Positions 1 through 39,723 of a stretch of DNA of 39,723 bases are shown here, piece by piece. The notes under the pieces are model-generated. The model worked only from the letters and a program-made list of their open reading frames with translations. It had not been told where the DNA came from and ran no database searches. How positions within the stretch are numbered: the stretch's first letter is position 1; each line of letters starts with the position of its first letter. Both the position numbers and the translations under genes were made by a program. Origin of the DNA: a virus. Where the stretch lies: the IMG/VR virus record IMGVR_UViG_3300038335_000064, positions 1-39,723 of that record; one strand, 5' to 3'.

Positions 1-127
1 CGCCGGGGATGTCGCCGGAGATGAGCGCGTAGTAGAACCGCGCGGTGCTGTCGAGCGAGAGGCTGATCAGTTCGGATTTTGCTGACGTGACCGGCGGGGC
101 TTGCCCGTTGCCAAACTCGCCCAGATC
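1..127. repeat. 127-bp terminal direct repeat, copy 1 (identical to 39597..39723); circular-closure overlap
   Basis: Bases 1-127 match 39597-39723 base for base. Both copies sit inside one continuous minus-strand reading frame. Confidence 0.95.
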
Positions 128-11057: not shown

Positions 11058-11378
11058 ATGCGCATCTACCTCAGCGGCCCCATGAGCGGCCTTCCAGACC
11101 TCAACTTCCCCGCGTTCAATGCCGCCGCTGCCAAACTGCGCAGCCTGGGCTACACCGTGGTCAACCCCGCCGAACTCAACCCGGACAACACCACAGCCTG
11201 GGATGCGTGCATGCGCGCCGACATCAAAGCCCTGTGCGATTGCACCACACTGGCGCTGCTGCCGGGCTGGGAACGCAGCCAGGGCGCGCACCTGGAAATG
11301 CACATCGCACATCGTATCGGAATCGAGGTGTTGCAGATCGATGCGCTGGTGTGCCGTGGCGTTCCTCAAACCGCATGA
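11058..11378 (+). CDS. DUF4406 (nucleoside 2-deoxyribosyltransferase-like) protein
   Basis: MRIYLSGPMSGLPDLNFPAFNAAAAKLRSLGYTVVNPAEL...LPGWERSQGAHLEMHIA. Confidence 0.75.
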   Translation: MRIYLSGPMSGLPDLNFPAFNAAAAKLRSLGYTVVNPAELNPDNTTAWDACMRADIKALCDCTTLALLPGWERSQGAHLEMHIAHRIGIEVLQIDALVCRGVPQTA

Positions 11379-12037
11379 GTGTTCCGCGCCACATCTGGAC
11401 CGAAGCCGAAGTAGCCATGCTGCGCGCACGCTACCCGCACCAGCGCACCGCCGATATCGCGGCTGCCCTTGGCGTATCCAAAGCCAAGGTCTACTACAAA
11501 GCCGACGCGCTCGGCCTGCGCAAGAGCACCGCGTTCCTGGCCAGCCAGATGTCCGGGCGAACCGACGGAACGCGCGGCGAGAAAACACGATTCGCTTCAG
11601 GGAAACGCCCGTGGAACGCCGGCAAGAAAATCGGTACCCACGGCCGCAGCGCCGAAACGCAATTCAAGCCTGGGCAACTGACCGGCAAAGCCCGCATGTT
11701 GCTCAAGCAGATCGGTTCAGAGCGCATATCGAAGGATGGTTACCTCGAACGCAAGATCAATGATGACCAGCCGATCTACAAGCGCTGGCGCGCCGTACAC
11801 CGCATCGTCTGGGAGCGCGCCAACGGACCAATCCCGCGTGGCCACGCCATCGTGTTCCGGCCCGGCTGCCGCAGCATCAATGCCGCCGCCATCACCGTCG
11901 ACAAACTCGAACTGGTCACCCGGCGCGAACTGATGCGCCGCAACAGCATCCACAACTACCCCGAACCCATCGTCCAGGTAATGCAAGCGCGTGGCGCGCT
12001 GGTCAGGGCCATCAACCGCAGGAGCAAGGCCGCATGA
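11375..12037 (+). CDS. HNH endonuclease (HNH_3-type)
   Basis: ATGA overlap. Contains GYLERKI..RWRAVHRIVWERANGPIPRGHAIVFRPG. Confidence 0.7.
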   Translation: MSVPRHIWTEAEVAMLRARYPHQRTADIAAALGVSKAKVYYKADALGLRKSTAFLASQMSGRTDGTRGEKTRFASGKRPWNAGKKIGTHGRSAETQFKPGQLTGKARMLLKQIGSERISKDGYLERKINDDQPIYKRWRAVHRIVWERANGPIPRGHAIVFRPGCRSINAAAITVDKLELVTRRELMRRNSIHNYPEPIVQVMQARGALVRAINRRSKAA

Positions 12038-12587: not shown

Positions 12588-12727
12588 ATGTGCTGGTTTG
12601 TTCGTCTTATGGGAGAGATTACGAAGTGAACAAGCGCGTGCTAGACCCATGCTGTGGGAGCCGCATAAGGCCGGCACGCATTGGCTTGTGTTCATGAAGC
12701 GTTCGGCCGGCAGTGTCTGATCACACC

Positions 12728-12955
12728 ATGACAGACACTTGGCTTATCCCCGCCGAAGTCGAAGAGCTCACCGCCAGACAGCGGTGGTCCGCGCAATGCC
12801 GGGCGCTGGCAGCAATGGGTATTCCGTTTCGGCCCAACGCCGTCGGCCGCCCGCTGGTTGAGCGTGCAGTGATACTCTCGCAGGCTGGCAAGCCAAAGCC
12901 AAAGCGCGAACCGAACTGGGGGGCCATCAAGCATGGGCCGGCCAAGACTGCATGA
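12728..12955 (+). CDS. DUF4224-domain protein (integrase-associated, possible excision factor)
   Basis: LIPAEVEELTARQRWSAQCRALAAMGIPFRPNAVGRPLV. Lies immediately upstream of int and overlaps it. Confidence 0.7.
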   Translation: MTDTWLIPAEVEELTARQRWSAQCRALAAMGIPFRPNAVGRPLVERAVILSQAGKPKPKREPNWGAIKHGPAKTA

Positions 12956-13901
12956 CAAGCACCTGCCGCGCGGTATGTTGCACCGGCACGGCGCCTACTA
13001 CTTCGTCGCTGCCGGCAAATGGCACCGGCTCGCCAGTGAGTACGGCCCGGCGCTAATCCGCTACGCCGAGCTTGTGGGCAACACGCCAACCGTGACCACG
13101 GTCGCCGATGCGGTATCACATTACCTTGAATCGAGCGCGGCACGACTACGGCCCGCCACCCTCGAAGGCTACCGCAACGGCGCCCGTAGGCTGGCCGCAG
13201 TGTTCGGCCGCATGGCTCTCAGCGACCTCACCGCCGCGCACGTCTACCGCTACCTGGTCGAGCACGGCACCGTGCAGGCGAACCGCGATCGCGCGTTGCT
13301 GAGCGCTGCGTACAGCCACGCACGCCGCATCGGCGCGTTCAGCGGCGACGACCCCACCAAGCGCCTGCAATTCCGCAACCCGGAAGTCCCGCGCCAACGC
13401 TACGTCACCGATGCCGAGTTCGCAGCACTGATCGCCGCCGCACCGCCGCGCCTCGCCGTCATCCTACGCTTCGTGTACACCACCGGCATGCGCATTGGCG
13501 ACGCGCTCGCGATGCCGATGGATGCGATCACCGACGACGGCATCGCCTACCAACAACGCAAGACCGGCGCGCGCCTGCTGATCGAGATAACGCCAGACCT
13601 GCGCGCCCTACTCGATGAAATCGCCCGCACATTTCGCCGCTTCGGCCGCCGCTATTTGTTCGAATCGCGCCCAACCCGCGCCGGGCCGGCCGGGCCGTAC
13701 ACCGTCAGCGGACTGCGCAGCAACTTTCGGCGGGCGCTGGCCAAGGCTGGGCTTGCGCACATGACCTTGCATGACCTGCGGCGCAAGGCCGGCAGCGACA
13801 TCGAGGGCGAGCACGCAACACGGTTGCTCGGCCACCGCGACGCCAAGGTCACGCAACGCCATTATCGCGCCAAGCCAGAGCGCGTAAAACCGGTCCTGTA
13901 G
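12933..13901 (+). CDS. int: Tyrosine recombinase / phage integrase
   Basis: Lambda-Int-like N-terminus MGRPRLHDKHLPRGM..GAYYF. C-terminal catalytic motifs HDLRRKAGS and LLGHRDAKVTQRHY. Confidence 0.9.
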   Translation: MGRPRLHDKHLPRGMLHRHGAYYFVAAGKWHRLASEYGPALIRYAELVGNTPTVTTVADAVSHYLESSAARLRPATLEGYRNGARRLAAVFGRMALSDLTAAHVYRYLVEHGTVQANRDRALLSAAYSHARRIGAFSGDDPTKRLQFRNPEVPRQRYVTDAEFAALIAAAPPRLAVILRFVYTTGMRIGDALAMPMDAITDDGIAYQQRKTGARLLIEITPDLRALLDEIARTFRRFGRRYLFESRPTRAGPAGPYTVSGLRSNFRRALAKAGLAHMTLHDLRRKAGSDIEGEHATRLLGHRDAKVTQRHYRAKPERVKPVL

Positions 13902-13902
13902 C

Positions 13903-13912
13903 TGTCCAAAAC
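13903..13912 (+). repeat. TGTCCAAAAC repeat, copy 1 (candidate arm-type Int site)
   Basis: Exact 10-mer, 2 nt after the int stop. Confidence 0.5.
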
Positions 13913-13963
13913 TAGCCGAAACCTCACGCAGGAATGCGGCTTCCAGCGGGTCGAAAACTCAGT

Positions 13964-13973
13964 GTTTTGGACA
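13964..13973 (-). repeat. TGTCCAAAAC repeat, copy 2 (inverted)
   Basis: GTTTTGGACA on the plus strand. Confidence 0.5.
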
Positions 13974-14030
13974 CGCAAGAATGCGCAAAATAGCGCGGCA
14001 TGGCCGTTTAAGGCCGATCAGAGCACGGCA

Positions 14031-14075
14031 CTGTTAATCAGGGGGTCGTTGGTTCGAGTCCAACTTCGGGCGCCA
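14031..14075 (+). other. attP core: 3' 45 nt of a tRNA-Asn(GUU)-like gene (anticodon loop through CCA), not a complete tRNA
   Basis: Reads as CTGTTAA loop, TCAGG, GGGTC, T-arm GTTGG-TTCGAGT-CCAAC, acceptor 3' strand TTCGGGC, then G and CCA. No matching 5' acceptor strand (GYYYGRR) or D-arm lies upstream. Confidence 0.7.
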
Positions 14076-14094
14076 CTCAAAGCTAAGCGCAGCA

Positions 14095-14124
14095 AGGCTC
14101 GCAGAGATGCGGGCCTATTTTTTT
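14095..14124 (+). terminator. Rho-independent terminator after the tRNA fragment
   Basis: AGGCTCGC-agagat-GCGGGCCT (8 bp with one G-U pair) followed by A plus seven T. Confidence 0.65.
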
Positions 14125-14155
14125 CGCGCTGGGTGCTGTCCATTTGCGGATGCTT

Positions 14156-14165
14156 TGTCCAAAAC
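14156..14165 (+). repeat. TGTCCAAAAC repeat, copy 3 (a partial CTGTCCA copy lies at 14136-14142)
   Basis: Exact 10-mer on the far side of the core from copies 1 and 2. Confidence 0.5.
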
Positions 14166-14221
14166 CCAGACACGCTGGAAGTATTGGATGCGATAATGGA
14201 CGCCTCAACCAGGAGGCGGAC

Positions 14222-14665
14222 ATGGGCAGGCCACGGAAGCACGATACGGATCTACCACAGCGTCTTTTTCAACGTCGCGGCAAGTTCTACTACGTCAACG
14301 GCGATGGGCAATGGGTGCCGCTCGGCGGCGATCGCGAAGAAGCGATCACTGCCGCGGAGCGGATGAACGCCTTGTCCGCCGAAGCGCGCCTCGCCGCAGC
14401 CGCGATGGTCCGGGATGTGGGTGCGGAGTTGCGTCGAATCGTGTTCGGCCGGGACGGGCACAAGTGCGTTTACTGCGGGGCAACCGACCTGCTCGAAATA
14501 GACCACGTCGTGCCTGCGGCGAACGGCGGCGCATCGACCGTGCGCAACCTAGTCGTCGCTTGCTCGCGTTGCAACATGATGAAGTCCGACGGCGACTTGG
14601 CCGCGTTCTTCATGAAGCTGCACCGCGTGGTAGAGCGGTGTCTGGACGCGGCCGCCGCGAAGTGA
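14222..14665 (+). CDS. Fusion protein: lambda-Int-type arm-binding N-terminal domain + HNH nuclease
   Basis: AGGAGG lies 5 nt before the ATG. The N-terminus MGRPRKHDTDLPQRLFQRRGKFYYVNGDGQWVPLGGDREEAITAAERMN parallels the int N-terminus here and the lambda Int arm-binding domain. The C-terminus carries HKCVYCG..EIDHVVPAANGG..NLVVACSRCNMMK. Confidence 0.75.
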   Translation: MGRPRKHDTDLPQRLFQRRGKFYYVNGDGQWVPLGGDREEAITAAERMNALSAEARLAAAAMVRDVGAELRRIVFGRDGHKCVYCGATDLLEIDHVVPAANGGASTVRNLVVACSRCNMMKSDGDLAAFFMKLHRVVERCLDAAAAK

Positions 14666-14681
14666 CCCGACGCAAGCGCGA

Positions 14682-14996
14682 TCACTTTGAGTTCGGCGCC
14701 GGCACCTGCCCCTCGATCTTGCCGATTTCAGCCAACCGCCCATTCGCGACATCCAGCGACGCCGCGCGCGCCTTCGCGGCCTCGATCCAGTCACCGACGG
14801 TCACCAACCGCCGGCCGCTCATCGGGTCCGGGATCAGCTCAACGAGGTCTGACCGAATAGGAACATAGCGGCGTTCGGCCGGCAGGCTGGCATCGACCGG
14901 CCGGGAAATCACTACCGGCGGCGGTGTGCGCATCGCGGCGCAGCCGCTTGCCAGGATTGCCAGTAGCACGGGAATCGCAGGACGCTTCAACTTCAT
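14682..14996 (-). CDS. o-spanin (Rz1-like outer-membrane lipoprotein)
   Basis: MKLKRPAIPVLLAILASGC lipobox. ATGA overlap with the Rz-like stop. Confidence 0.7.
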   Translation of the reverse strand: MKLKRPAIPVLLAILASGCAAMRTPPPVVISRPVDASLPAERRYVPIRSDLVELIPDPMSGRRLVTVGDWIEAAKARAASLDVANGRLAEIGKIEGQVPAPNSK

Positions 14997-15463
14997 GGCA
15001 CGTCTTCTTGCAGCGCCGGGCAGACTGGCGTAGCCAGCAACGAAGCGCAGCCCGGATCTGCTGTGGCGGATCGATAGCGATCGCGCCACGCGGCCATGCT
15101 GGCTGCGGCTGCAGCGGCGCGTTTCGCAGCCGCAGCCAGCGCATTGCCATTCGATTCCCCGATCCGGTCAAGATCAGCGTGACACTGCTCGACCCGGGCT
15201 ACTGCAGCACCGTGCAATCTCTCCCAATCCGCATTCGCTGCAGCAGCACCGCGCAGCGATTCGGCAAGCGAGGTGACTTGCTCGGTCAGCGTGCGCACGT
15301 CGTCGCGAGCTGCGTCCAGGCGCACGCCGCGCAGCCACAGCCACGTGCCGAGGATCAGGATGACCCCGATCAGCGCGCCGGCCAACGCCAGCACGACTTT
15401 GCCTGTCGCGACGCGGGCGGCCGTTTTTGTGGCTCTACCGGCCAACGCCGATACGACACTCAT
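14993..15463 (-). CDS. i-spanin (Rz-like)
   Basis: N-terminal TM segment VVLALAGALIGVILILGTWLWL followed by a coiled coil. ATGA overlap with the endolysin stop. Confidence 0.65.
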   Translation of the reverse strand: MSVVSALAGRATKTAARVATGKVVLALAGALIGVILILGTWLWLRGVRLDAARDDVRTLTEQVTSLAESLRGAAAANADWERLHGAAVARVEQCHADLDRIGESNGNALAAAAKRAAAAAASMAAWRDRYRSATADPGCASLLATPVCPALQEDVP

Positions 15464-17353: not shown

Positions 17354-18004
17354 TTATGCGATGACTACGATGTTGGATTCTGCGGAGCCCACGCTCTCGC
17401 AAGTGGCGTTGCTGGCGAAGACCATCGCGCCGTAGCTCCACCCGGTGCGAACCGAATTAGCATCGCTATTTAGCGTTGCAGGCGAGCCGGCGACGAACAC
17501 TACGCCGCCGGTGAACTGCGCGGTTTCGTCGAGGAACTCCACGCGATAACCCGTGATTGCGCTGCCGCCGTTGTCTGCGGGCGGCGTAAACGTCACGCTC
17601 AGCGCGTGTGGGCCTACCTGCGTGAGCGCGCCGATGGTCGGAGCGCCTGGGGCGTCGATCGCGGTGATCGAGTTCGATGGGCTAGATATGGGTCCAGCGC
17701 CGACCGCATTGATTGCGAAGACGGTGAACGTGTACGCCACGCCGCGCGTGAGTCCGGACACGACGATGGGCGATGACGTCCCGATGTTGAACAGTCCGCC
17801 AGGCGACGATGTGACGCGATAACCAGTGATCGGGCTACCGCCGTTGTCTGCGGGCGGCGTAAACGTCACGCTCGCGGACTTGGTGCAAACCGCGGTGGCG
17901 ACAATGCCGGTCGGCACTTCCGGTACGGTGGCGACAATGCCGGTCGGCACTTCCGGTACGGTAGCGCCCTTGCCAGACATCAAAAGCGTAGCGGCACCGG
18001 ACAT
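17354..18004 (-). CDS. Protein with two fibronectin type III-like domains
   Basis: Contains two TFTPPADNGGS(P/A)ITGYRV signatures and YTFTVFAINAVGAG. The N-terminus holds an exact 2x33-bp in-frame repeat (17894-17959). Confidence 0.7.
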   Translation of the reverse strand: MSGAATLLMSGKGATVPEVPTGIVATVPEVPTGIVATAVCTKSASVTFTPPADNGGSPITGYRVTSSPGGLFNIGTSSPIVVSGLTRGVAYTFTVFAINAVGAGPISSPSNSITAIDAPGAPTIGALTQVGPHALSVTFTPPADNGGSAITGYRVEFLDETAQFTGGVVFVAGSPATLNSDANSVRTGWSYGAMVFASNATCESVGSAESNIVVIA

Positions 18005-20406: not shown

Positions 20407-20747
20407 GCCGACACCTCGATAGGCAGATTGATACGGGTGCGTTGGGCCCCGTCGCGGAAGTCGGCGGAGAGCGCCAGTTCCAAGCGCCCTGCGGCGGCCT
20501 GCAACACGCGCACCTGGCGAACGGCAAGGCGCGGCTCCCAACGCCGCAGCGCGTCCACGGTGGCGGCGTAGATGTCGCCCAGGGTGCGCGCGTTGATCGG
20601 CGCGTCCACCATCTCGAACAGGCGCGAGCCGTAGTCGCGACGCATCACCCGCGAGCCAATGGGCGTCGTCAGGATGTCGGCGACCGACTGGCGCAGGTGC
20701 GTCAGGTCATCGAGCGAGCGGCCAGTTTGGCGGGACATTCCGGGCAT
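20403..20747 (-). CDS. Baseplate protein W (GPW/gp25-like)
   Basis: MPGMSRQTGRSLDDLTHLRQSVADILTTPIGSRVMRRDYGS. Confidence 0.8.
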   Translation of the reverse strand: MPGMSRQTGRSLDDLTHLRQSVADILTTPIGSRVMRRDYGSRLFEMVDAPINARTLGDIYAATVDALRRWEPRLAVRQVRVLQAAAGRLELALSADFRDGAQRTRINLPIEVSA

Positions 20748-20799
20748 GGCTGCAATGATCCACATCCGGGTGCGCTCAGTCTCGGGGAACGGGACGCAC
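20745..20799 (-). repeat. 55-bp conserved element, copy A (54 of 55 identical to 34472..34526), 5' of baseplate gpW
   Basis: A 49-bp exact core (20751-20799 = 34478-34526) plus the start codon. In both copies the upstream gene ends with TAG at the same offset. Confidence 0.9.
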
Positions 20800-20801
20800 T
20801 G

Positions 20802-21785
20802 CTACTCGCTCACCGCGTCGGGGCGTTGTGCCTCGATGCTGGTGGTGTAGCCGCTGCTGTCGAGGCGATGCTCGGCGCTCTTGATGATCCAGTCGCCGTC
20901 CACGCCGTCGCGAAACCCGGACAGGGTAATCGGGCGCTCGGCAACCAGTTCGGGGTCGCCGGGCAGGCTCAGGCTCAGCGCAGTGCGCCCGCGCGACATC
21001 TTGCGCAAGCGCGCTTGCGCGGCGCGCTTGGCCTCGGCTTCGGTGCGGAACGCATTGCGCAACGTGATCGATGGGTCGCCGGCGCCTACCGCCAGCGTCA
21101 CCGATGAGTGCCGTCGAGCCGGCTTCCAACGCGCTTCCACCCGCGAATAGAACTGCCGCTCTTGCTCGGACGCTCGCCAGCTCGTTACCTGATTGCGGAC
21201 GATCGCAACCGCCGGCATGGCGGCGCCGCTCGCGTCCAGACCCTTCCCGACCTCGACGAACAACAGGCGCCCGGCTGCGGGCTTGGCGATGGCGCCGAAC
21301 TGCTCGGCCAGCCGTGTGAGCAGGTGCAGGTCGCTTTCGTCGGTCTGGTCCAGGTGTTCCACCGGCTGCGCTTCCAAGGCCGCGGCAATCTGCGGGGTGA
21401 GCCGGTGGCGGGCAGCAATGGTGCGCACGATTTCGCCCAGCGTCTTGCCGTCATAGTCAGCGCGGCGCTGGCTCTTGAGGCTGGCCAGCATGTCGGCAGC
21501 GGCGCCGCGCAGGTTCAGCACGGCCGGCGGCCCGGACGACTCCACTTCGTCAACCGTGTAGCGCCCCATCGTCCGTGCGCCGCCAGTCTCGCGGTAGCCG
21601 AGCGCAATCTCCAGCTCGACGCCAGCACCGGGCCATCCCAAGGCGTGGTCGCGGTCATCGAGCGACAGTTCGAATCGATCGGACGAAATACCCGCCTCAT
21701 CGCTGATGCTGAGCGAAATCAGGCGATCAGCGATATTGCCAGTGATGTCGGTTCCGTTCAGCGTGATGGCGAACGCCGGCTTCAC
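20802..21785 (-). CDS. Tail protein D (P2 gpD / late control D family)
   Basis: The GTG at 21785 overlaps the gpX stop as GTGA. Contains VKPAFAITLNGTDITG.... Confidence 0.85.
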   Translation of the reverse strand: MKPAFAITLNGTDITGNIADRLISLSISDEAGISSDRFELSLDDRDHALGWPGAGVELEIALGYRETGGARTMGRYTVDEVESSGPPAVLNLRGAAADMLASLKSQRRADYDGKTLGEIVRTIAARHRLTPQIAAALEAQPVEHLDQTDESDLHLLTRLAEQFGAIAKPAAGRLLFVEVGKGLDASGAAMPAVAIVRNQVTSWRASEQERQFYSRVEARWKPARRHSSVTLAVGAGDPSITLRNAFRTEAEAKRAAQARLRKMSRGRTALSLSLPGDPELVAERPITLSGFRDGVDGDWIIKSAEHRLDSSGYTTSIEAQRPDAVSE

Positions 21786-21991: not shown

Positions 21992-22716
21992 GCATCCTCG
22001 CCGTAGGCCGCCAGCGACAGGCGAAACTCCAGCATCAGCGGCCGGCCGCTGGCATCCAGCTCGCTGCCGGTGGTCTCGACCCGGGTGAGCACGTACAGGC
22101 CGAGCACCGTGCCGGACGAATCGACCAGTGCCTGCGGCTCGCCCTGGTCGGCGAGCGCGCGCAGACGGGTGATCGTTTCGGTGCCGCCGGTGTAATGGGT
22201 CAGGGTGTAGCCGGACAGCTCAATGGTTTCCTCGCCGCGGCCAAGAAACTGATGTGCCGGTGCGCGGCCCAGGCGCTCCTGCGCCGCCCAACGGTAATCG
22301 ATCGAGCGCGCGATGCTCTGGTGCGCCAGCGCACCGGCCAGAAACTGCACCGGCCCCAAGCTCAGCAGCACGCTGCCACTGGGCGGCGGATCGCCGGCCG
22401 ATGCGTTGGCGCTGCCACTGGGCGGCGGATCGCCGGCCGATGCGTTGGCGCTGCCACTGGGCGGCGATGTGGCGAGCGTTGGCGACAATGTGGGCGCTGG
22501 CAGGTCAGGCGCTGGCGCTACCGGCGTTGCCCCCAGCGCGGTGCGGAATCGATCCACGCGCCCGCTCAACAGCGCGCCGGCCCAGCTTGGCACACCTGCC
22601 GCAGTCAGCGCAGCGGACATCGCCGACACCGGATCGCGCGGCATGCCGCGCGCGAGATTGATCAGGCTGCGCGTCTGCCGCGCGGCGCTGACCACCCGGC
22701 CGATATCCAGGCTCAT
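21988..22716 (-). CDS. Tail protein U (P2 gpU-like) with a repeat-bearing N-terminal extension
   Basis: The C-terminal approximately 135 aa (LLSLGPVQF...RWAAQERLGRAPAHQFLGRGEETIELSG...) are gpU-like. The N-terminal approximately 105 aa are extra. Confidence 0.8.
   Translation of the reverse strand: MSLDIGRVVSAARQTRSLINLARGMPRDPVSAMSAALTAAGVPSWAGALLSGRVDRFRTALGATPVAPAPDLPAPTLSPTLATSPPSGSANASAGDPPPSGSANASAGDPPPSGSVLLSLGPVQFLAGALAHQSIARSIDYRWAAQERLGRAPAHQFLGRGEETIELSGYTLTHYTGGTETITRLRALADQGEPQALVDSSGTVLGLYVLTRVETTGSELDASGRPLMLEFRLSLAAYGEDA
22372..22449. repeat. Exact 2x39-bp tandem repeat (plus a degenerate third unit) inside gpU
   Basis: GCTGCCACTGGGCGGCGGATCGCCGGCCGATGCGTTGGC occurs twice and encodes PPSGSANASAGDP units. 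Confidence 0.9.
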
Positions 22717-34253: not shown

Positions 34254-34474
34254 CGGCCGCACCCGCTGAAATCGGCAATCGCAATCCCCGGCGTTCCGCC
34301 GGCTGCGCGAGTGGCTTCGGCGGCAGCCCGACCCATCCACTTGTCCAGCTCGCTGCTCACCCATGCGGCATCGGCGCGGGTGAGTTCGCGCTCGCCAAAG
34401 CGCACCCGCTGCCCAGCCAGCACCTTGGTGTAGGCGGCTTGCAGCAGTGTTACTTGGTCGGTGGCGAAGGACAT
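34250..34474 (-). CDS. Head-tail joining protein W (lambda gpW-like)
   Basis: MSFATDQVTLLQAAYTKVLAGQRVRFGERELTRADAAWV. Confidence 0.7.
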   Translation of the reverse strand: MSFATDQVTLLQAAYTKVLAGQRVRFGERELTRADAAWVSSELDKWMGRAAAEATRAAGGTPGIAIADFSGCGR

Positions 34475-34526
34475 GGATGCAATGATCCACATCCGGGTGC
34501 GCTCAGTCTCGGGGAACGGGACGCAC
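34472..34526 (-). repeat. 55-bp conserved element, copy B, 5' of head gpW and 3' of the Mor-like gene
   Basis: See 20745..20799. In this copy the arms GGGTGCG/CGCACCC form a 7-bp inverted repeat around a 20-nt core. Confidence 0.9.
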
Positions 34527-34528
34527 CC

Positions 34529-34849
34529 CTACGCGCCCGCCAATCCCTCGGCAGTGGCGCCATCCAGCAAGCGATACAGCGTCCGCCGCCCCACCCGGTG
34601 CTTGCGGCAGATCGCCCGCACCGACATGCCGCCGCGCAGATCCACCCGTATCGCATCCACCGGGTAATGCACGCACGCCGGGATGTACAAGTCCTGACCC
34701 GGGTATTCGTCCACCAGGTACGCCACCACGGCCGCAATGGTCGGCCGGATCGCATCACCATCGGCGCGCATGTGCATGGCGGCGCCGATGGTGAGTTCGT
34801 CGACCAGCTCATCGATCCGCGCCCGCGCGCGTGTGGTGTTGCGGCTCAC
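34529..34849 (-). CDS. Mor-family transcriptional activator-like protein
   Basis: GQDLYIPACVHYPVDAIRVDLRGGMSVRAICRKHRVGRRTLYRLL resembles the Mu Mor/C YIPK...HTH C-terminus. GTGA overlap with the terL stop. Confidence 0.6.
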   Translation of the reverse strand: MSRNTTRARARIDELVDELTIGAAMHMRADGDAIRPTIAAVVAYLVDEYPGQDLYIPACVHYPVDAIRVDLRGGMSVRAICRKHRVGRRTLYRLLDGATAEGLAGA

Positions 34850-36762: not shown

Positions 36763-37364
36763 GGCGTCACATCCAGTGCGCCCAGCCGACGGCTAAGTTC
36801 GGCCAGTTGCAGTTCCACCGCCTCGGCAATCAGTGCCCGGCACCGCCCTTCATCGGCTTCGGCCGCCAGTTGCGGCCCAAGCGTATCGGCCAATGCCTCC
36901 AGGCCGGCGCGCGCGATCGCAAACGCCCCAGCGCACACCGCCACCACATCGGCGGTGCGCAGCAACTTGCCTTCGTTCTCGGCATGTTCGCGCTCGGCGC
37001 TCAGCGCGGCAGCGCGCTCGCGGCGCTCGCGCCAATACTGGTAGCCGAGCGTGGGTGCTTCGGGTTCGCTACCGCCGTCAACCGCCGCAGCGGCGCTATC
37101 GGGCGGCGGCAGCGCGTTCTGCGGTTGGCCCGGCGCTGCTCCCCTCCTCGCCTCCCGTTGCGCGGCGTGGCGTTCGGCGACGGCGCGCTTGCCGGGGTCG
37201 CGAGTGGCTTCGATGCGCGCGATCGACTCGGCCACCTGCACTGCCCCATCATCTGCCAGCACCAGCCGGCCATCGCGCTTGAGCGCGGTGACGTAGCTGC
37301 GCCGGTAGCCGAGCAGGCGGGCGAACTCGGCTTGCGTGCAGGTTTGCGGTAACCCGTCGGTCAT
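36759..37364 (-). CDS. Terminase small subunit (Nu1-like N-terminal HTH)
   Basis: TQAEFARLLGYRRSYVTALKRDGRLV. Position and overlaps with terL and the upstream gene fit. Confidence 0.7.
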   Translation of the reverse strand: MTDGLPQTCTQAEFARLLGYRRSYVTALKRDGRLVLADDGAVQVAESIARIEATRDPGKRAVAERHAAQREARRGAAPGQPQNALPPPDSAAAAVDGGSEPEAPTLGYQYWRERRERAAALSAEREHAENEGKLLRTADVVAVCAGAFAIARAGLEALADTLGPQLAAEADEGRCRALIAEAVELQLAELSRRLGALDVTP

Positions 37365-38290
37365 CCGTTGGCCTCGCGGTAGGTTTGCACGGCCGCATGA
37401 AACACGCTGATCTGCTCACCCAGCCAGTCGGTTTCGGTGCGATCGACGGGCGGGATGATGTCGCCCAGGTACAGCACGCCATGTGGCCCGAGCACTTGCG
37501 AGCCGGCCTGGTAGCGCTTGCGGGCACTGGCCACGCCGTAGCGGCGCTGCAGGGCGTTGATGAAGTGCTGCTGCGCGGCGATGCGGGCGCCGTTGGCGCT
37601 GCACCAGCGCTGATAGAGGTCGTAAACGCTGGTGCTTAGCGCCGGGCGCGCGCTGACGCCGGGGATGTCGCCGGCGGTGAGCGCGGTGTAGAACCAGGCA
37701 ATGGAGTCATCGTAGGCCAGCGCTGCGTCCGCGCCAGCCGGGTCGGCCGCAACCTCGACGCCCAGCTCATCGGTCCAGTCCACGCCGGTGTGGCGCTGCG
37801 CGCAGGCAAAGGCAGCGCGCATGGCGCGGGCCGGGGCCATGCGGGTTTTCTGCGCGGTGCGCAAGGCGGCGGCGAAGATGCGCCCGGCGCTAACCAGCAC
37901 ATCGGCGCGGTGGTTCGGCGGCGCGGGGATGGGTTGCGGCGTGGAGGCGGCGCCGGTGACCAGGGCATCGTAGGCGCGGATGACGTGCAGGTGGAACTTG
38001 GCGCTGATCCACATGGCGTAGGCGTAGACCAGTTCTTTGACGGCGTAGGTGCCGTTTCCGAATCCGTCGTTCACCGTGGACAGGGGGGCCTCCTCAGATG
38101 TGAGGAGGCCCCCCGCACTTTTCTCGGTGTTTTCGATCTCCGCGATCAGTTCGGCGGTCTGATCGAGTCGCAACCAGTTCGCCGGCTGGTGCCGCTTGGC
38201 ACCGCCACTGGCTTGGTGCAAGTCATTGAGGCAGTAGCGCCCGGTCGGATCGCGGCGAATCTGGGTATTGGCGATGATCAGGGCATTCAC
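37361..38290 (-). CDS. KilA-N domain protein fused to a paralogue of the primase C-terminal domain
   Basis: GGAGG lies 6 nt before GTG 38290. KilA-N signature: IRRDPTGRYCLNDLHQASGG..ANWLR...GTYAVKELVYAYAMWISAKFHLHVI. The last approximately 113 aa are about 65 percent identical to the primase tail (39301-39640). Confidence 0.8.
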   Translation of the reverse strand: MNALIIANTQIRRDPTGRYCLNDLHQASGGAKRHQPANWLRLDQTAELIAEIENTEKSAGGLLTSEEAPLSTVNDGFGNGTYAVKELVYAYAMWISAKFHLHVIRAYDALVTGAASTPQPIPAPPNHRADVLVSAGRIFAAALRTAQKTRMAPARAMRAAFACAQRHTGVDWTDELGVEVAADPAGADAALAYDDSIAWFYTALTAGDIPGVSARPALSTSVYDLYQRWCSANGARIAAQQHFINALQRRYGVASARKRYQAGSQVLGPHGVLYLGDIIPPVDRTETDWLGEQISVFHAAVQTYREANG

Positions 38291-38949
38291 AGGGCACCTC
38301 CACGGGTTTCTTCGGCAATGATTTCGGCGCAGCGGGCGAGCAGAAAGCCCACCATGTCGTCCACCTCGGCGGGGCTGATCCCGTCGCGCAGCAGGCAATC
38401 GCGGAAATCGCGTTCGGCCAGTGCGAGGCCGTGATCTAACGGGTCGCGCTCGGCCGCGGCCGGCAGCACGCGGCGGGAGCGCTGGGATGGGAAGGCAATG
38501 ACGTTGCTGGGCCGCGCGTTGGCGGCAAGGGTGCGGGTGCTCATGGCGATGGTCTCCAACTGGTCTGTGGAGTCCGCCACCGCGACGCCAATCGCGGAGA
38601 CGGACGACGCGGGGTTGGCGTACCGGCAGTTGGCACCGGCGAGCCTTGCGGCTCCCCCGCGCCGCCCGCCATAGACCGGCGAGTGACGCAACGCAGGGCC
38701 CAGTGCCGATGCACCGGGCGTGAAAAAAGCGCCGGCATCGGACGATGGGCGCTTGCGCGCCAACGTGCTCGGGACGCCAATCCCGGCTGCCCGATTGAGG
38801 GCAGCGGGGCCAGCGTACACCCGTGCCGCAGGGCGAGGCAAGCACCGCAGTACCGCGTTAGTCTCGCCGTCGGCGGACAGTCTGCTGCCGGCCCAGCGCT
38901 GAAACGCCGGGCTGCGCATTGCGGCAAGCGTGGCCTGTGTGTTGCTCAT
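38287..38949 (-). CDS. Hypothetical protein (alternative start ATG 38544 gives an 85-aa product)
   Basis: AGGAGG lies 4 nt before ATG 38949 and GC3 is about 78 percent. The middle is low complexity and contains a terminator-like hairpin. GTGA junction with the KilA-N gene. Confidence 0.35.
   Translation of the reverse strand: MSNTQATLAAMRSPAFQRWAGSRLSADGETNAVLRCLPRPAARVYAGPAALNRAAGIGVPSTLARKRPSSDAGAFFTPGASALGPALRHSPVYGGRRGGAARLAGANCRYANPASSVSAIGVAVADSTDQLETIAMSTRTLAANARPSNVIAFPSQRSRRVLPAAAERDPLDHGLALAERDFRDCLLRDGISPAEVDDMVGFLLARCAEIIAEETRGGAL
38723..38752 (-). terminator. Candidate intrinsic terminator inside ORF 38287..38949
   Basis: On the minus strand: GCGCC-CATCG-(loop)-CGATG-cc-GGCGC followed by TTTTTT. 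Confidence 0.4.
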
Positions 38950-39274: not shown

Positions 39275-39300
39275 CTGACGCACAGATGTTGGTGCAGCGA

Positions 39301-39723
39301 TCATTTATTGGCCTCGCGGTAGTCCTGCACGGCTGCTTGGAAGGCGCTAATCTGTTCGCCCAGCCAGGCGGTCTCGGTGGTGTCGGGCGGCGGTTCGTTC
39401 GCGCCCAGGTACAGCACGCCATGTGGCCCCAAGATGCGCGAGCCGGCCTGGTAGCGCTTGCGGGCGTTGACGACGCGGTGATGCCGCTGCCAGGCGTTGA
39501 TGAGCCGCTGTTGCGGCGCAGCGCGGTTGCCGGTGTGGTTGCACCACAGTCGGTACAGTTCGTAAACGCTGCTGCTGAGCGCGGGACACGGCGTAACGCC
39601 GGGGATGTCGCCGGAGATGAGCGCGTAGTAGAACCGCGCGGTGCTGTCGAGCGAGAGGCTGATCAGTTCGGATTTTGCTGACGTGACCGGCGGGGCTTGC
39701 CCGTTGCCAAACTCGCCCAGATC
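39301..39723 (-). CDS. Primase-helicase, C-terminal part (continuation of 1..2083; stop TGA at 39303-39301)
   Basis: The frame is continuous with bases 127..1 through the 127-bp overlap. It ends ...YQAGSRILGPHGVLYLGANEPPPDTTETAWLGEQISAFQAAVQDYREANK*. The total predicted protein is about 792 aa. The tail resembles the C-terminal domain of P4-alpha/D5-type primases. Confidence 0.8.
   Translation of the reverse strand, partial: DLGEFGNGQAPPVTSAKSELISLSLDSTARFYYALISGDIPGVTPCPALSSSVYELYRLWCNHTGNRAAPQQRLINAWQRHHRVVNARKRYQAGSRILGPHGVLYLGANEPPPDTTETAWLGEQISAFQAAVQDYREANK
39597..39723. repeat. 127-bp terminal direct repeat, copy 2 (identical to 1..127)
   Basis: Same as copy 1. Unique length is therefore 39596 bp. 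Confidence 0.95.

What the first reader, a model, noticed from the sequence alone, without database searches (positions are those of the whole stretch)
13902..14665. Lambda-Int arm-binding domain fused to an HNH nuclease, beside attP and its TGTCCAAAAC repeats
Seen in the sequence:
- ORF 14222-14665 begins MGRPRKHDTDLPQRLFQRRGKFYYVNGDGQWVPLGGDREEAITAAERMN. This parallels the N-terminus of the adjacent integrase (MGRPRLHDKHLPRGMLHRHGAYYFV...) and the lambda Int arm-binding domain.
- Instead of a recombinase core it then carries an HNH motif (CVYCG...DH...N...CSRCN).
- It sits directly after the attP core (tRNA-Asn 3' fragment, 14031-14075).
- That core is flanked by three exact TGCCAAAAC-type 10-mers reading TGTCCAAAAC (13903, 13964 inverted, 14156) plus a partial copy. 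These are plausible arm-type sites.

Inference: the protein may be a nuclease or decoy targeted to Int arm sites. Possible roles are excision directionality control, competition with Int, or attack on phages sharing the same att arms. I do not know of a described Int-N/HNH fusion.
Basis: partly seen in the sequence, partly recalled or inferred. Interest (0 to 1): 0.72.

Follow-up and report, generated by a model that had tools for sequence, protein, structure and literature searches.

The report
Integrase arm-binding domain fused to nuclease
A temperate phage carries, right beside its chromosomal attachment site, a small conserved gene that joins the DNA-reading head of a lambda-type integrase to an HNH DNA-cutting domain; the combination is apparently undescribed, probably cuts DNA at integrase docking sites, and behaves like a mobile cassette.

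Summary
ORF 14222-14665 (147 aa) has two domains:
- Residues 1-52 are a lambda-Int-type arm-DNA-binding domain. A family profile hits lambda Int 1-52 at E 1.5e-8, and the top Foldseek hit for the AF2 model is 2wcc.
- Residues ~60-147 are an intact zinc-HNH nuclease (Pfam HNH, E 6.6e-12).

It is not a remnant. About 35-40 clusters (at 50% identity) of 127-221 aa share the whole architecture, the HNH zinc and catalytic residues are invariant or nearly so, and dN/dS is 0.14-0.36.

The TGTCCAAAAC repeats are very probably real Int arm-type sites. Relatives of this integrase have repeats at the same positions around a tRNA-fragment core, and the repeat sequence changes from phage to phage.

The gene sits at the outer edge of the P' arm wherever that arm could be read, in three different layouts. 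Phages with 66-70% identical integrases have an empty site at exactly that spot.

My best reading is an arm-site-tethered nuclease carried on a homing-endonuclease-like cassette. The biological role is inferred; rivals are an anti-competitor weapon and a recombination modulator. I found no curated family or paper describing this fusion. I rate it a new variant of a known kind.

The parts
12713..12955 (+). excisionase-like gene (DUF4224), overlapping the start of int
   Evidence: Pfam DUF4224 E 3.6e-10. PHROG excisionase families E 4e-10. The same gene precedes int in L002, L212, L214 and L215.
12933..13901 (+). heterobivalent tyrosine integrase with an MGRPR-type arm-binding N-terminus
   Evidence: PF00589 E 3e-13 and PHROG 1 integrase E 4.7e-45. 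57-64% identical to the Ints of L171, L166, L215 and L177.
13903..13912 (+). P-arm arm-type site TGTCCAAAAC, directly after the int stop codon
   Evidence: Exact copy. Relatives have their own variant of the site at the same position right after the int stop.
13950..13959 (+). degenerate arm-type copy GTCGAAAACT
   Evidence: the repeat finder family D1, 90% identical to the reference copy.
13964..13973 (-). P-arm arm-type site TGTCCAAAAC, inverted
   Evidence: Exact copy. An inverted second P-arm site is also present in L172 and L176.
14030..14075 (+). attP core: 3' fragment of tRNA-Asn(GTT), from the anticodon loop to CCA
   Evidence: Sequence. BLAST to an annotated tRNA-Asn. No complete tRNA. 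An identical fragment lies in L166, L175, L176 and L172, a near-identical one in L002, and its shared 3' part in L215.
14095..14126 (+). intrinsic terminator copied with the tRNA 3' flank
   Evidence: Terminator scan: 9-bp stem plus T run. The same hairpin follows the core in L003, L215, L171 and L177.
14137..14146 (+). P'-arm site 1 (TGTCCATTTG)
   Evidence: Two direct sites 8-10 nt apart follow the terminator in L215, L171, L177, L176, L175 and L172.
14156..14165 (+). P'-arm site 2 (TGTCCAAAAC)
   Evidence: Exact copy. The same 10-mer lies at the equivalent position in L166 and L215.
14193..14202 (-). cassette-borne inverted arm-like site (CGTCCATTAT) overlapping a -10-like GATAAT (14192-14197); putative operator
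   Evidence: An equivalent inverted CGTCCA site lies 15-40 nt before the HNH start in L166, L003, L085 and L215. No consensus -35 was found.
14211..14216 (+). Shine-Dalgarno AGGAGG of the HNH gene
   Evidence: Sequence. Conserved AGGAG in relatives.
14222..14377 (+). residues 1-52: lambda-Int-type arm-DNA-binding domain (basic tail, three strands, one helix)
   Evidence: The N-domain profile hits 1kjk at E 1.5e-8. The AF2 model has pLDDT above 90 for residues 11-50. Foldseek top hit is 2wcc; 1kjk gives TM 0.75, rmsd 1.0. 40% identity to lambda Int 1-52.
14378..14464 (+). residues 53-81: long helix joining the two domains, ending in the R..V..RDG motif that precedes the zinc finger
   Evidence: AF2 helix 53-78. 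Conserved R71, R77 and D78.
14465..14665 (+). residues 82-147: HNH (beta-beta-alpha-metal) nuclease core with CxxC...CxxC zinc site, D94-H95, N109 and N118, plus a C-terminal helix
   Evidence: Pfam HNH E 6.6e-12. C82, C85, H95, N109, C114 and C117 are invariant in 34 sequences; D94 and N118 are nearly invariant. Foldseek hit to Gme HNH nickase 4h9d.

Best explanation
The ORF encodes a two-domain enzyme.
- The N-terminal ~52 residues are a lambda-Int-type arm-binding domain. It most likely docks the protein on the GTCCA-type arm sites that this phage's own integrase uses around attP.
- The C-terminal ~85 residues are an intact zinc-HNH nuclease. It most likely nicks or cuts DNA close to the docking site.

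The gene is part of a ~0.5-kb cassette that sits at the outer edge of the P' arm of attP in phages with this integrase type wherever that arm could be read. It is present only sporadically and occurs in either orientation. I therefore think it acts as a free-standing homing-endonuclease-like element. It would recognise the functionally constrained arm sites of related int-att modules that lack it, break the DNA next to them, and be copied in by recombinational repair. This could also damage competitors.

In the window-type layout an inverted arm-like site overlaps the -10-like element of the gene, which suggests repression by the protein itself or by Int.

Shown here: domain identities, conservation, purifying selection, arm-site architecture, gene position, and presence/absence polymorphism.
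Inferred: DNA binding to arm sites, cleavage, homing, autoregulation.
For: Domains:
- Pfam HNH E 6.6e-12.
- N-domain profile against lambda Int 1-52, E 1.5e-8, the only significant PDB family.
- 22 of 37 N-domains hit Pfam Arm-DNA-bind_1.
- The AF2 model shows three strands plus a helix, then beta-beta-alpha.
- Foldseek top hit is the lambda IntDBD-P'2 DNA complex 2wcc (probability 1.0), followed by the Gme HNH nickase 4h9d.

Real gene family:
- 10 close clusters and about 35-40 clusters at 50% identity match end to end.
- Zinc and catalytic residues are invariant or nearly so.
- dN/dS is 0.14-0.36.

Arm sites:
- Three exact copies lie only in attP.
- Relatives have the same layout: one site after the int stop, an inverted site, the core, a terminator, then two direct P' sites. 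The repeat sequence differs between them: TGTCCAAAAC, TGTCCACTA, TGTCTACTAT, TGTCCAATA.

Position (three layouts, all with the gene at the outer edge of P'):
- int > attP > HNH: window, L002, L166.
- attP > HNH > < int: L215.
- int > HNH > core(-), with a 0-38 nt gap between int and HNH: L165, L168, L212, L214.

Mobility:
- L171 and L177 have an empty site, with the int stop codon abutting the second P' site. Their Ints are 70% and 66% identical to the L215 Int.
- None of 40 IMG/VR loci with related integrases carries the fusion.
- Int and HNH divergence are only weakly correlated (Spearman 0.31). For example L212/L168 are 69% identical in Int but 44% in HNH.

Known precedents:
- HNH homing endonucleases that use AP2-type DNA-binding domains (PMC10448857, PMC5714182). 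The AP2 fold's relation to the Int N-domain fold is from my own knowledge.
Against: - No biochemical data exist. Neither binding nor cleavage has been shown.
- The phage's own attP (or attL/attR) carries the presumed target sites, and no self-protection mechanism is evident.
- Tight, possibly translationally coupled int-HNH pairs (gaps of 0-14 nt in L168, L212 and L214) would fit a functional partner of Int just as well.
- The HNH-linked N-domains form their own subfamily, and the cognate Int is not the closest. Identical site specificity is therefore not proven.
- No empty-site relative with the same flanks as the window itself was recovered.
- The Int/HNH discordance rests on seven pairs.
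- The region next to attP is a general hot spot for accessory genes.
Confidence: 0.45

Rival explanations
1. Anti-competitor weapon, working like Odn. The phage or prophage uses a borrowed arm-binding domain to aim a nuclease at the att arms of other elements with the same integrase type (superinfecting temperate phages, or satellites). It destroys them rather than spreading itself.
For: - Same domain evidence as the best explanation.
- In the window-type layout the gene ends up at the prophage end, next to the host tRNA, with its own -10-like element. It could therefore be expressed from the lysogen.
- Precedent: the ICP1 nuclease Odn pairs a nuclease domain with the DNA-binding domain of the satellite's replication initiator and cuts the satellite origin (PMC8263062).
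Against: - The resident prophage carries the same arm sites at attL and attR, so self-damage must be avoided somehow.
- In four loci the gene has no promoter of its own and is co-transcribed with int.
- No defence-system model matches beyond the generic HNH domain.
- This reading overlaps heavily with the homing reading and cannot be separated from it by sequence.
Confidence: 0.2
2. Accessory or regulator of site-specific recombination. The protein occupies arm sites within or next to the intasome. There it either competes with Int (inhibitor, directionality or timing control) or introduces a nick that helps or blocks integration or excision.
For: - Conserved linkage xis-int-HNH, with int-HNH gaps of 0-38 nt in L165, L168, L212 and L214.
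- The gene is always next to the P' arm.
- The lambda NTD is known to regulate the catalytic domain and to act in trans (PMC9791396).
Against: - The gene is absent from most relatives of the same integrase family: 0 of 40 IMG/VR loci, and empty sites in L171, L177 and L175. It is therefore dispensable for recombination.
- A separate excisionase-like gene is present.
- L001 kept the HNH gene after int and the core were deleted.
- A pure decoy would not need an invariant nuclease active site.
Confidence: 0.2
3. Packaging-associated HNH (like HK97 gp74) that assists terminase at cos. On this reading the N-terminal similarity to Int is incidental.
For: The HNH core is of the PF01844 type. Its closest solved structure among nucleases is the small Gme HNH nicking endonuclease.
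Against: - The gene is about 20 kb from the head/packaging end of the late operon in a 39.6-kb circle.
- In L215 it is flanked by attP and int.
- The N-domain match to lambda Int is specific and conserved.
Confidence: 0.03
4. Decayed remnant or chance ORF: the 5' end of a second integrase gene left downstream of the tRNA and accidentally joined to an HNH fragment.
For: - tRNA followed by an int start is a common island layout.
- One relative (P0023 in L211) is degenerate (D94G, N118Q) and sits next to an 89-aa integrase remnant in a Gammaproteobacteria MAG.
Against: - Full-length conservation across about 35-40 clusters, with no frameshifts in the loci read.
- Invariant active-site and zinc residues.
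- dN/dS well below 1.
Confidence: 0.02

Closest known systems
Lambda integrase N-terminal (arm-type) DNA-binding domain, residues 1-64 (PDB 1kjk, 2wcc; Pfam PF09003)
   Same: - Same position at the extreme N-terminus.
- Same MGRRR-type basic tail, three-stranded sheet and helix.
- 40% identity over 52 residues.
- The nearby repeats resemble lambda's arm-type consensus C/AAGTCACTAT as I recall it (own knowledge). For example, L175 has CTGTCCACTAT.
   Different: It is followed by an HNH nuclease instead of the core-binding and catalytic domains of a tyrosine recombinase. The single sequence scores just below Pfam's gathering cut-off (18.7-21.4 bits against 22).
Free-standing phage HNH homing endonucleases with AP2-type DNA-binding domains (HNH_3 + AP2; 'IPA-HNH' of ICP1; Magnani et al. 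2004 as cited in PMC10448857 and PMC5714182)
   Same: - A small phage nuclease built from an HNH domain plus a compact beta-sheet DNA-binding domain.
- From my own knowledge, that fold class is shared by AP2 and integrase N-domains.
- Sporadic distribution and insertion between conserved genes.
   Different: - The domain order is reversed: DNA-binding domain first.
- The HNH is PF01844/HNH_5-type, not HNH_3.
- The DNA-binding domain is specifically the lambda-Int arm type, with no AP2 Pfam hit.
- The gene is tied to the int-attP module.
Odn, the origin-directed chimeric nuclease of Vibrio phage ICP1 (PMC8263062)
   Same: Same design logic: a nuclease domain fused to the DNA-binding domain of a replication or recombination protein, so that the sites used by that protein become the nuclease's targets.
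   Different: - Odn uses a T5orf172 nuclease and a RepA_N domain taken from a satellite, and it attacks a foreign element's origin.
- Here the domain matches the phage's own integrase family, so the presumed targets are also present in the carrier.
Small phage/prophage HNH nicking endonucleases (Gme HNHE 4h9d; HK97 gp74 class)
   Same: Closest solved nuclease structure. Similar size of the HNH core, with a CxxC...CxxC zinc site.
   Different: Those proteins lack an arm-binding domain and are encoded next to terminase genes. This one is encoded next to attP.

Membership tests
Lambda-Int arm-type DNA-binding domain (Pfam PF09003 Arm-DNA-bind_1) | Profile match to the family | tested here: inconclusive
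   - The single protein scores 18.7 bits (full length) or 21.4 bits (N-domain alone), against a gathering cut-off of 22.
- 22 of 37 family N-domains hit the model at E <= 0.1, the best at 4.2e-5.
- A profile of the 37 N-domains hits lambda Int 1-52 at E 1.5e-8, with no other significant PDB family.
Lambda-Int arm-type DNA-binding domain (Pfam PF09003 Arm-DNA-bind_1) | Fold: N-terminal basic tail, three-stranded antiparallel sheet packed on one helix | tested here: met
   - AF2 model: strands 15-18, 21-25 and 31-35, helix 38-50, with pLDDT above 90.
- Foldseek: 2wcc is the top hit (probability 1.0, target TM 0.63); 1kjk gives TM 0.75, rmsd 1.0 A.
Lambda-Int arm-type DNA-binding domain (Pfam PF09003 Arm-DNA-bind_1) | Binds repeated arm-type sites flanking the att core | not testable with these tools
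   Arm-type repeats are present and conserved in position. Binding by this protein needs EMSA or footprinting.
HNH / His-Me finger nucleases (Pfam PF01844) | Profile match above the curated cut-off | tested here: met
   45.8 bits against 21.4; also HNH_5 at 40.3 against 27.5.
HNH / His-Me finger nucleases (Pfam PF01844) | Catalytic His, conserved Asn residues and the CxxC...CxxC zinc site; beta-beta-alpha fold | tested here: met
   - C82, C85, H95, N109, C114 and C117 are invariant, and D94 and N118 nearly invariant, in 34 sequences.
- The model has strands 91-94 and 111-114 and helix 115-120.
- Foldseek hits to 4h9d, Cas9 HNH domains and McrA.
HNH / His-Me finger nucleases (Pfam PF01844) | Metal-dependent DNA nicking or cleavage | not testable with these tools
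   Needs an in vitro nuclease assay.
Free-standing homing endonuclease gene | Sporadic presence/absence at the same genomic position among related genomes | tested here: met
   - Filled site in L215 against empty sites in L171 and L177, whose Ints are 70% and 66% identical to the L215 Int.
- L175 is empty in the window-type layout.
- 0 of 40 related Int loci in IMG/VR carry the gene.
Free-standing homing endonuclease gene | Gene phylogeny discordant with flanking genes | tested here: inconclusive
   Seven Int/HNH pairs give Spearman 0.31, p 0.18. L212/L168 are 69% identical in Int against 44% in HNH; window/L002 are 41% in Int against 57% in HNH. The sample is small.
Free-standing homing endonuclease gene | Cleaves the cassette-less allele near the insertion point and is copied in by repair | not testable with these tools
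   Needs cleavage mapping and co-infection or marker-exclusion experiments.
HNH-AP2 homing endonucleases (HNH_3 + AP2) | N-terminal HNH_3 domain and C-terminal AP2 domain | tested here: not met
   No HNH_3 or AP2 hit. The order is DNA-binding domain then HNH, and the HNH is PF01844/HNH_5 type. This is an analogue, not a member.
Terminase-associated HNH (HK97 gp74 type) | Gene adjacent to terminase/cos | tested here: not met
   The gene lies next to attP and the lysis end of the late operon, about 20 kb from the head/packaging end. In L215 it is flanked by attP and int.
Recombination directionality factor / excisionase | Similarity to known Xis/RDF families | tested here: not met
   There are no Xis/RDF hits for this ORF. 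The separate ORF 12713-12955 carries the DUF4224/excisionase match.

The most novel reading that the evidence does not exclude
A previously unrecognised class of phage nuclease that reads integrase arm-type sites. It would be a homing or warfare device that targets the int-attP module itself. It might distinguish an intact attP (P and P' arms together, as in incoming or excised phage DNA) from the split arms of an integrated prophage. If so, attachment sites are a battleground between temperate phages that share an integrase type.
Probability: 0.3. Interest if true: 0.8.

Novelty: new variant of a known kind. Interest (0 to 1): 0.62.

Why it matters
- **A new vulnerability.** Arm-type sites have been viewed only as architectural docking points for integrase. 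A conserved nuclease that carries the same reading head and always sits at the edge of the arm would mean these sites are also exploited as targets. The exploiter could be a selfish cassette or a phage fighting rivals for the same tRNA integration site.
- **A parallel to Odn.** This matches the logic of ICP1's Odn, which borrows the DNA-binding domain of the protein whose sites it attacks. It extends that logic to site-specific recombination modules.
- **Practical uses.** The roughly 50-residue arm-binding domain plus a small HNH is a compact, naturally modular site-directed nickase scaffold. The cassette may also explain breakpoints of mosaicism at prophage ends.
- **Annotation gap.** Standard annotation labels these proteins only as "HNH endonuclease" or "hypothetical", so the architecture is invisible in databases.

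Tried and rejected
- **Phage GenBank BLAST** of 12600-15100: only the tRNA fragment matched, so there is no annotated close relative.
- **Genome-contig scan** with the family alignment: 80 loci, all matching only the HNH part. No host genome with the full fusion among 185k species representatives, so the host remains unknown.
- **Viral-contig scan** with the family alignment: only L085 had the full architecture; the rest were generic HNH hits.
- **The search for homologous proteins with the N-domain alignment**: nothing reached E <= 0.001, because the domain is too short for a 5.8-billion-sequence database. Other architectures that share this N-domain could not be surveyed.
- **Rfam** on 13800-14300: no hit.
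- **Promoter scan**: no consensus sigma-70 promoter upstream of the HNH gene, only a -10-like GATAAT. The promoter/operator idea is therefore weak.
- **tblastn of the window's lysis genes** against all fetched loci: no homologues, so no empty-site relative with the window's own flanks could be aligned.
- **Cognate co-evolution test**: the HNH N-domain is not closest to its own phage's Int in two of three cases. I dropped the idea of a recent duplication or gene conversion from the neighbouring int.
- **NCBIfam and PADLOC**: only generic HNH-domain similarity (IscB, Cas9, PtuB and others), all far below the cut-offs.
- **Rejected readings:** the packaging-HNH and decayed-remnant readings, for the reasons given under the rival explanations.
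Full report
**1. What is at the coordinates**

The window is a closed circular genome of about 39.6 kb: bases 1-127 repeat exactly at 39597-39723. It has about 65% G+C.

Early-region genes on the + strand end with three elements:
- an excisionase-like DUF4224 gene (12713-12955);
- a tyrosine integrase (12933-13901);
- a 320-nt non-coding stretch, followed by ORF 14222-14665.

From 14682 onward the genes run on the - strand. They start with the lysis end of the late operon: an Rz1/LysC-like weak hit and an SLT transglycosylase.

The non-coding stretch holds the 3' part of a tRNA-Asn at 14030-14075, from the anticodon loop through CCA. BLAST matches an annotated tRNA-Asn, and ARAGORN finds no whole tRNA in the window. 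A terminator hairpin follows at 14095-14116, with a T run after it. This is a typical attP core.

TGTCCAAAAC occurs exactly three times in the whole window, all in this stretch, at 13903 (+), 13964 (-) and 14156 (+). Degenerate copies lie at 13950, 14137 and 14193 (-). Three copies of any 10-mer in 320 nt arose in 13 of 5000 Markov simulations.

**2. The protein**

- *HNH domain.* Pfam places an HNH domain at residues 82-123 (E 6.6e-12).
- *Arm-binding domain, single sequence.* Pfam gives a sub-threshold Arm-DNA-bind_1 match at residues 3-54 (18.7 bits against a cut-off of 22).
- *Close relatives.* A search of 5.8 billion proteins found only ten clusters. All are 144-155 aa, 46-100% identical and alignable end to end.
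- *Wider family.* A profile search of 1.84 billion cluster representatives found about 35-40 proteins of 127-221 aa that match from position 1 to about 135. They share MGR.R...DLP.R....G.YYYV......W..LG.DR..A...A..LN, followed by R..V..RDG..CVYCG....L.IDH.IP...GG....NLV.AC..CN..K.
- *Conservation.* In 34 aligned sequences, P12, C82, Y84, C85, H95, P98, G103, N109, C114, C117 and K121 are invariant, and D94 and N118 nearly so. Pairwise dN/dS among seven genes is 0.14-0.36.
- *Not a remnant.* These results rule out a decayed remnant. The one degenerate member seen, P0023 (D94G, N118Q), lies next to an integrase stub in a Gammaproteobacteria MAG.

**3. Is the N-terminus really an Int arm-binding domain?**

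- A profile of 37 N-domains hits the lambda Int N-domain (1kjk, E 1.5e-8) and full-length lambda Int (1z1b, 1z1g, 5j0n, E 4e-7) over residues 1-52. Nothing else in the PDB is significant.
- 22 of the 37 N-domains hit Pfam Arm-DNA-bind_1 individually.
- An AlphaFold2 model built on the family alignment (mean pLDDT 78, above 90 for residues 11-50) has three strands and a helix, then a long helix (53-78), then the beta-beta-alpha HNH core and a C-terminal helix.
- The best Foldseek hit in the PDB is the lambda Int DBD-P'2 DNA complex 2wcc (probability 1.0). 1kjk superposes with rmsd 1.0 A (TM 0.75). The next hits are the Gme HNH nickase 4h9d, Cas9 HNH domains and McrA.
- Pairwise identities: 40% to lambda Int 1-52 and 40% over 42 residues to the neighbouring Int.
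- The HNH-linked N-domains form a subfamily of their own. They have D rather than H before LP, L rather than M at position 15, and a lambda-like 'DR..AI..A..LN' helix where the local Ints have 'EYG.AL..YA.L.G'.
- The cognate Int is not the nearest Int in two of three pairs.
- The fusion is therefore old. It is not a recent copy of the adjacent gene.

**4. Are the repeats arm-type sites?**

Relatives of the integrase were fetched from IMG/VR and from contigs that encode the fusion. They show one constant architecture:
- one site immediately after the int stop codon;
- an inverted site about 60 nt further on;
- the tRNA-fragment core;
- the terminator;
- two direct sites 8-10 nt apart.

The repeat sequence itself differs between phages:

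| Repeat | Loci |
|---|---|
| TGTCCAAAAC | window, L166, L215 |
| TGTCCACTA | L175 |
| TGTCTACTAT | L172 |
| TGTCCAATA | L176, L177, L168 |

Conserved position with changing sequence is what arm-type sites should show. The repeats also occur in phages without the HNH gene, so they belong to Int. From my own knowledge, the lambda arm-type consensus is C/AAGTCACTAT, which is close to L175's CTGTCCACTAT. Lambda NTD 1-64 binds P and P' arm sites about 100 and 50 bp from the core (PMC9791396); the spacing here is similar.

**5. Where the gene sits**

In every context that could be read the gene lies in or beside an int-att module or its remnant, except L170 (no int within 400 nt upstream); L169 was too short to judge.

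| Layout | Arrangement | Loci |
|---|---|---|
| A | xis > int > P-core(+)-P' > HNH > < late genes | window, L002, L166 |
| A (probable) | contig starts inside or just after the tRNA fragment | L003, L085, L167 |
| B | core(+)-P' > HNH > < int < xis; the HNH and int stop codons overlap | L215 |
| C | xis > int > HNH > core(-), with 0-38 nt between int and HNH | L165, L168, L212/L213, L214 |

- In layout C the gene reads toward the core and abuts the P' sites in L168. In L212 its last codons are encoded by the tRNA-Arg fragment itself.
- In L001, int and the core have been deleted. This leaves a 33-codon DUF4224 stub joined to the HNH upstream region.
- Empty sites exist. In L171 and L177 the int stop codon directly abuts the second P' site. 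Their Ints are 70% and 66% identical to the L215 Int. L175 is empty in layout A.
- None of 40 IMG/VR loci with related integrases encodes the fusion. The only tblastn matches of the fusion in those loci are to the integrases' own N-termini.
- Int and HNH divergences are poorly correlated in seven pairs (Spearman 0.31). For example, L212/L168 are 69% identical in Int and 44% in HNH.
- In layouts A and B the cassette brings one or two inverted CGTCCA-type sites 15-40 nt before its start codon. In the window one of these overlaps a -10-like GATAAT. No consensus -35 is present.

**6. Interpretation**

*Shown.* The protein is a conserved, selected two-domain fusion of a lambda-type arm-binding domain and an intact HNH nuclease. 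It is encoded on a ~0.5-kb cassette that sits at the outer edge of the P' arm wherever that arm could be read, in three layouts and two orientations. It is present in only a small minority of phages with this integrase type.

*Inferred.* The N-domain docks on GTCCA-type arm sites, and the HNH domain nicks or cuts nearby.

*Role.* Sporadic presence with exact empty sites, both orientations, and loose coupling to the int phylogeny all resemble a free-standing homing endonuclease. Such elements usually target sequences that cannot mutate freely. Arm sites are of that kind, and using the integrase's own reading head guarantees recognition.

HNH homing endonucleases that use AP2 domains are known (PMC10448857, PMC5714182). 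From my own knowledge, AP2 domains are structurally related to integrase N-domains. ICP1's Odn shows the same design logic with a replication initiator's domain (PMC8263062).

I put about 0.45 on the homing-cassette reading, about 0.2 on a pure anti-competitor weapon and about 0.2 on a recombination modulator. Three observations argue against the modulator:
- most relatives lack the gene;
- L001 retains it after losing int;
- a separate excisionase-like gene is present.

The tight int-HNH coupling in layout C argues for the modulator. The unresolved weakness of every nuclease reading is self-protection, because the carrier has the same arm sites.

**7. Novelty**

- No Pfam, NCBIfam or PADLOC model describes the fusion.
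- Source databases call these proteins 'HNH endonuclease' or 'hypothetical'.
- Three full-text searches found no paper on an arm-binding/HNH fusion.
- The parts and the general design (a nuclease plus a borrowed DNA-binding domain, and HNH homing endonucleases with AP2/Int-fold domains) are known.
- I therefore rate it a new variant of a known kind, of moderate-to-high interest. Its value depends on experiments that are simple to do.

Noticed in passing
window 1-127 and 39597-39723: An exact 127-nt terminal direct repeat. The contig is a closed circle, so this is a complete ~39.6-kb phage genome with an intact attP rather than a prophage fragment.
   Followed up: partly
window 11207-12037 (+): A second, unrelated HNH endonuclease ORF (Pfam HNH_3, E 4.5e-8) in the early region, of the type usual for free-standing homing endonucleases. 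The phage therefore carries two different HNH genes.
   Followed up: no
window 37358-37657 vs 39298-39597; ORF 37361-38845 (-): A 300-nt direct repeat at 74% identity inside or next to a KilA-N-domain ORF. This suggests two paralogous KilA-N (antirepressor-like) genes near the junction of the circle.
   Followed up: no
window 20742-20814 and 34469-34541: A 73-nt direct repeat, 90% identical, 13.7 kb apart within the late region. Its function is unknown; it could be a repeated regulatory or intergenic element.
   Followed up: no
window 22371-22448 and 17893-17958: Perfect tandem duplications of 39 nt and 33 nt inside late (tail or tail-fibre region) ORFs.
   Followed up: no
L001 9781-10000: A relative in which int and the attP core are deleted. 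A 33-codon DUF4224 stub is joined directly to the upstream region of the HNH gene, which is intact. This is possibly an integration-defective derivative that kept the nuclease.
   Followed up: partly
L212 10480-10526 (also L213): The last codons of the HNH fusion gene are encoded by the reverse complement of the tRNA-Arg(CCT) fragment that forms the attP core. The ORF therefore runs into the crossover region.
   Followed up: partly
L171 3982-4260 and L177, compared with window 13902-14221: The att segment (arms, core, terminator) lies in the opposite orientation relative to int in some relatives with 57-64% identical integrases. The int-att module has therefore been rearranged repeatedly.
   Followed up: partly
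L211 9595-10513: A degenerate family member (P0023; catalytic D94G, N118Q) next to an 89-aa integrase remnant and a RES-domain gene in a 69-kb Gammaproteobacteria MAG contig. This is the only host clue found.
   Followed up: partly
L003 1, L215 1, L167 1: Three independent Logan contigs begin inside the tRNA-Asn T arm: L003 and L215 at the same base, L167 three bases upstream. This is as expected if both integrated and excised forms were present in the samples and the assembly graph branched at the att core.
   Followed up: no
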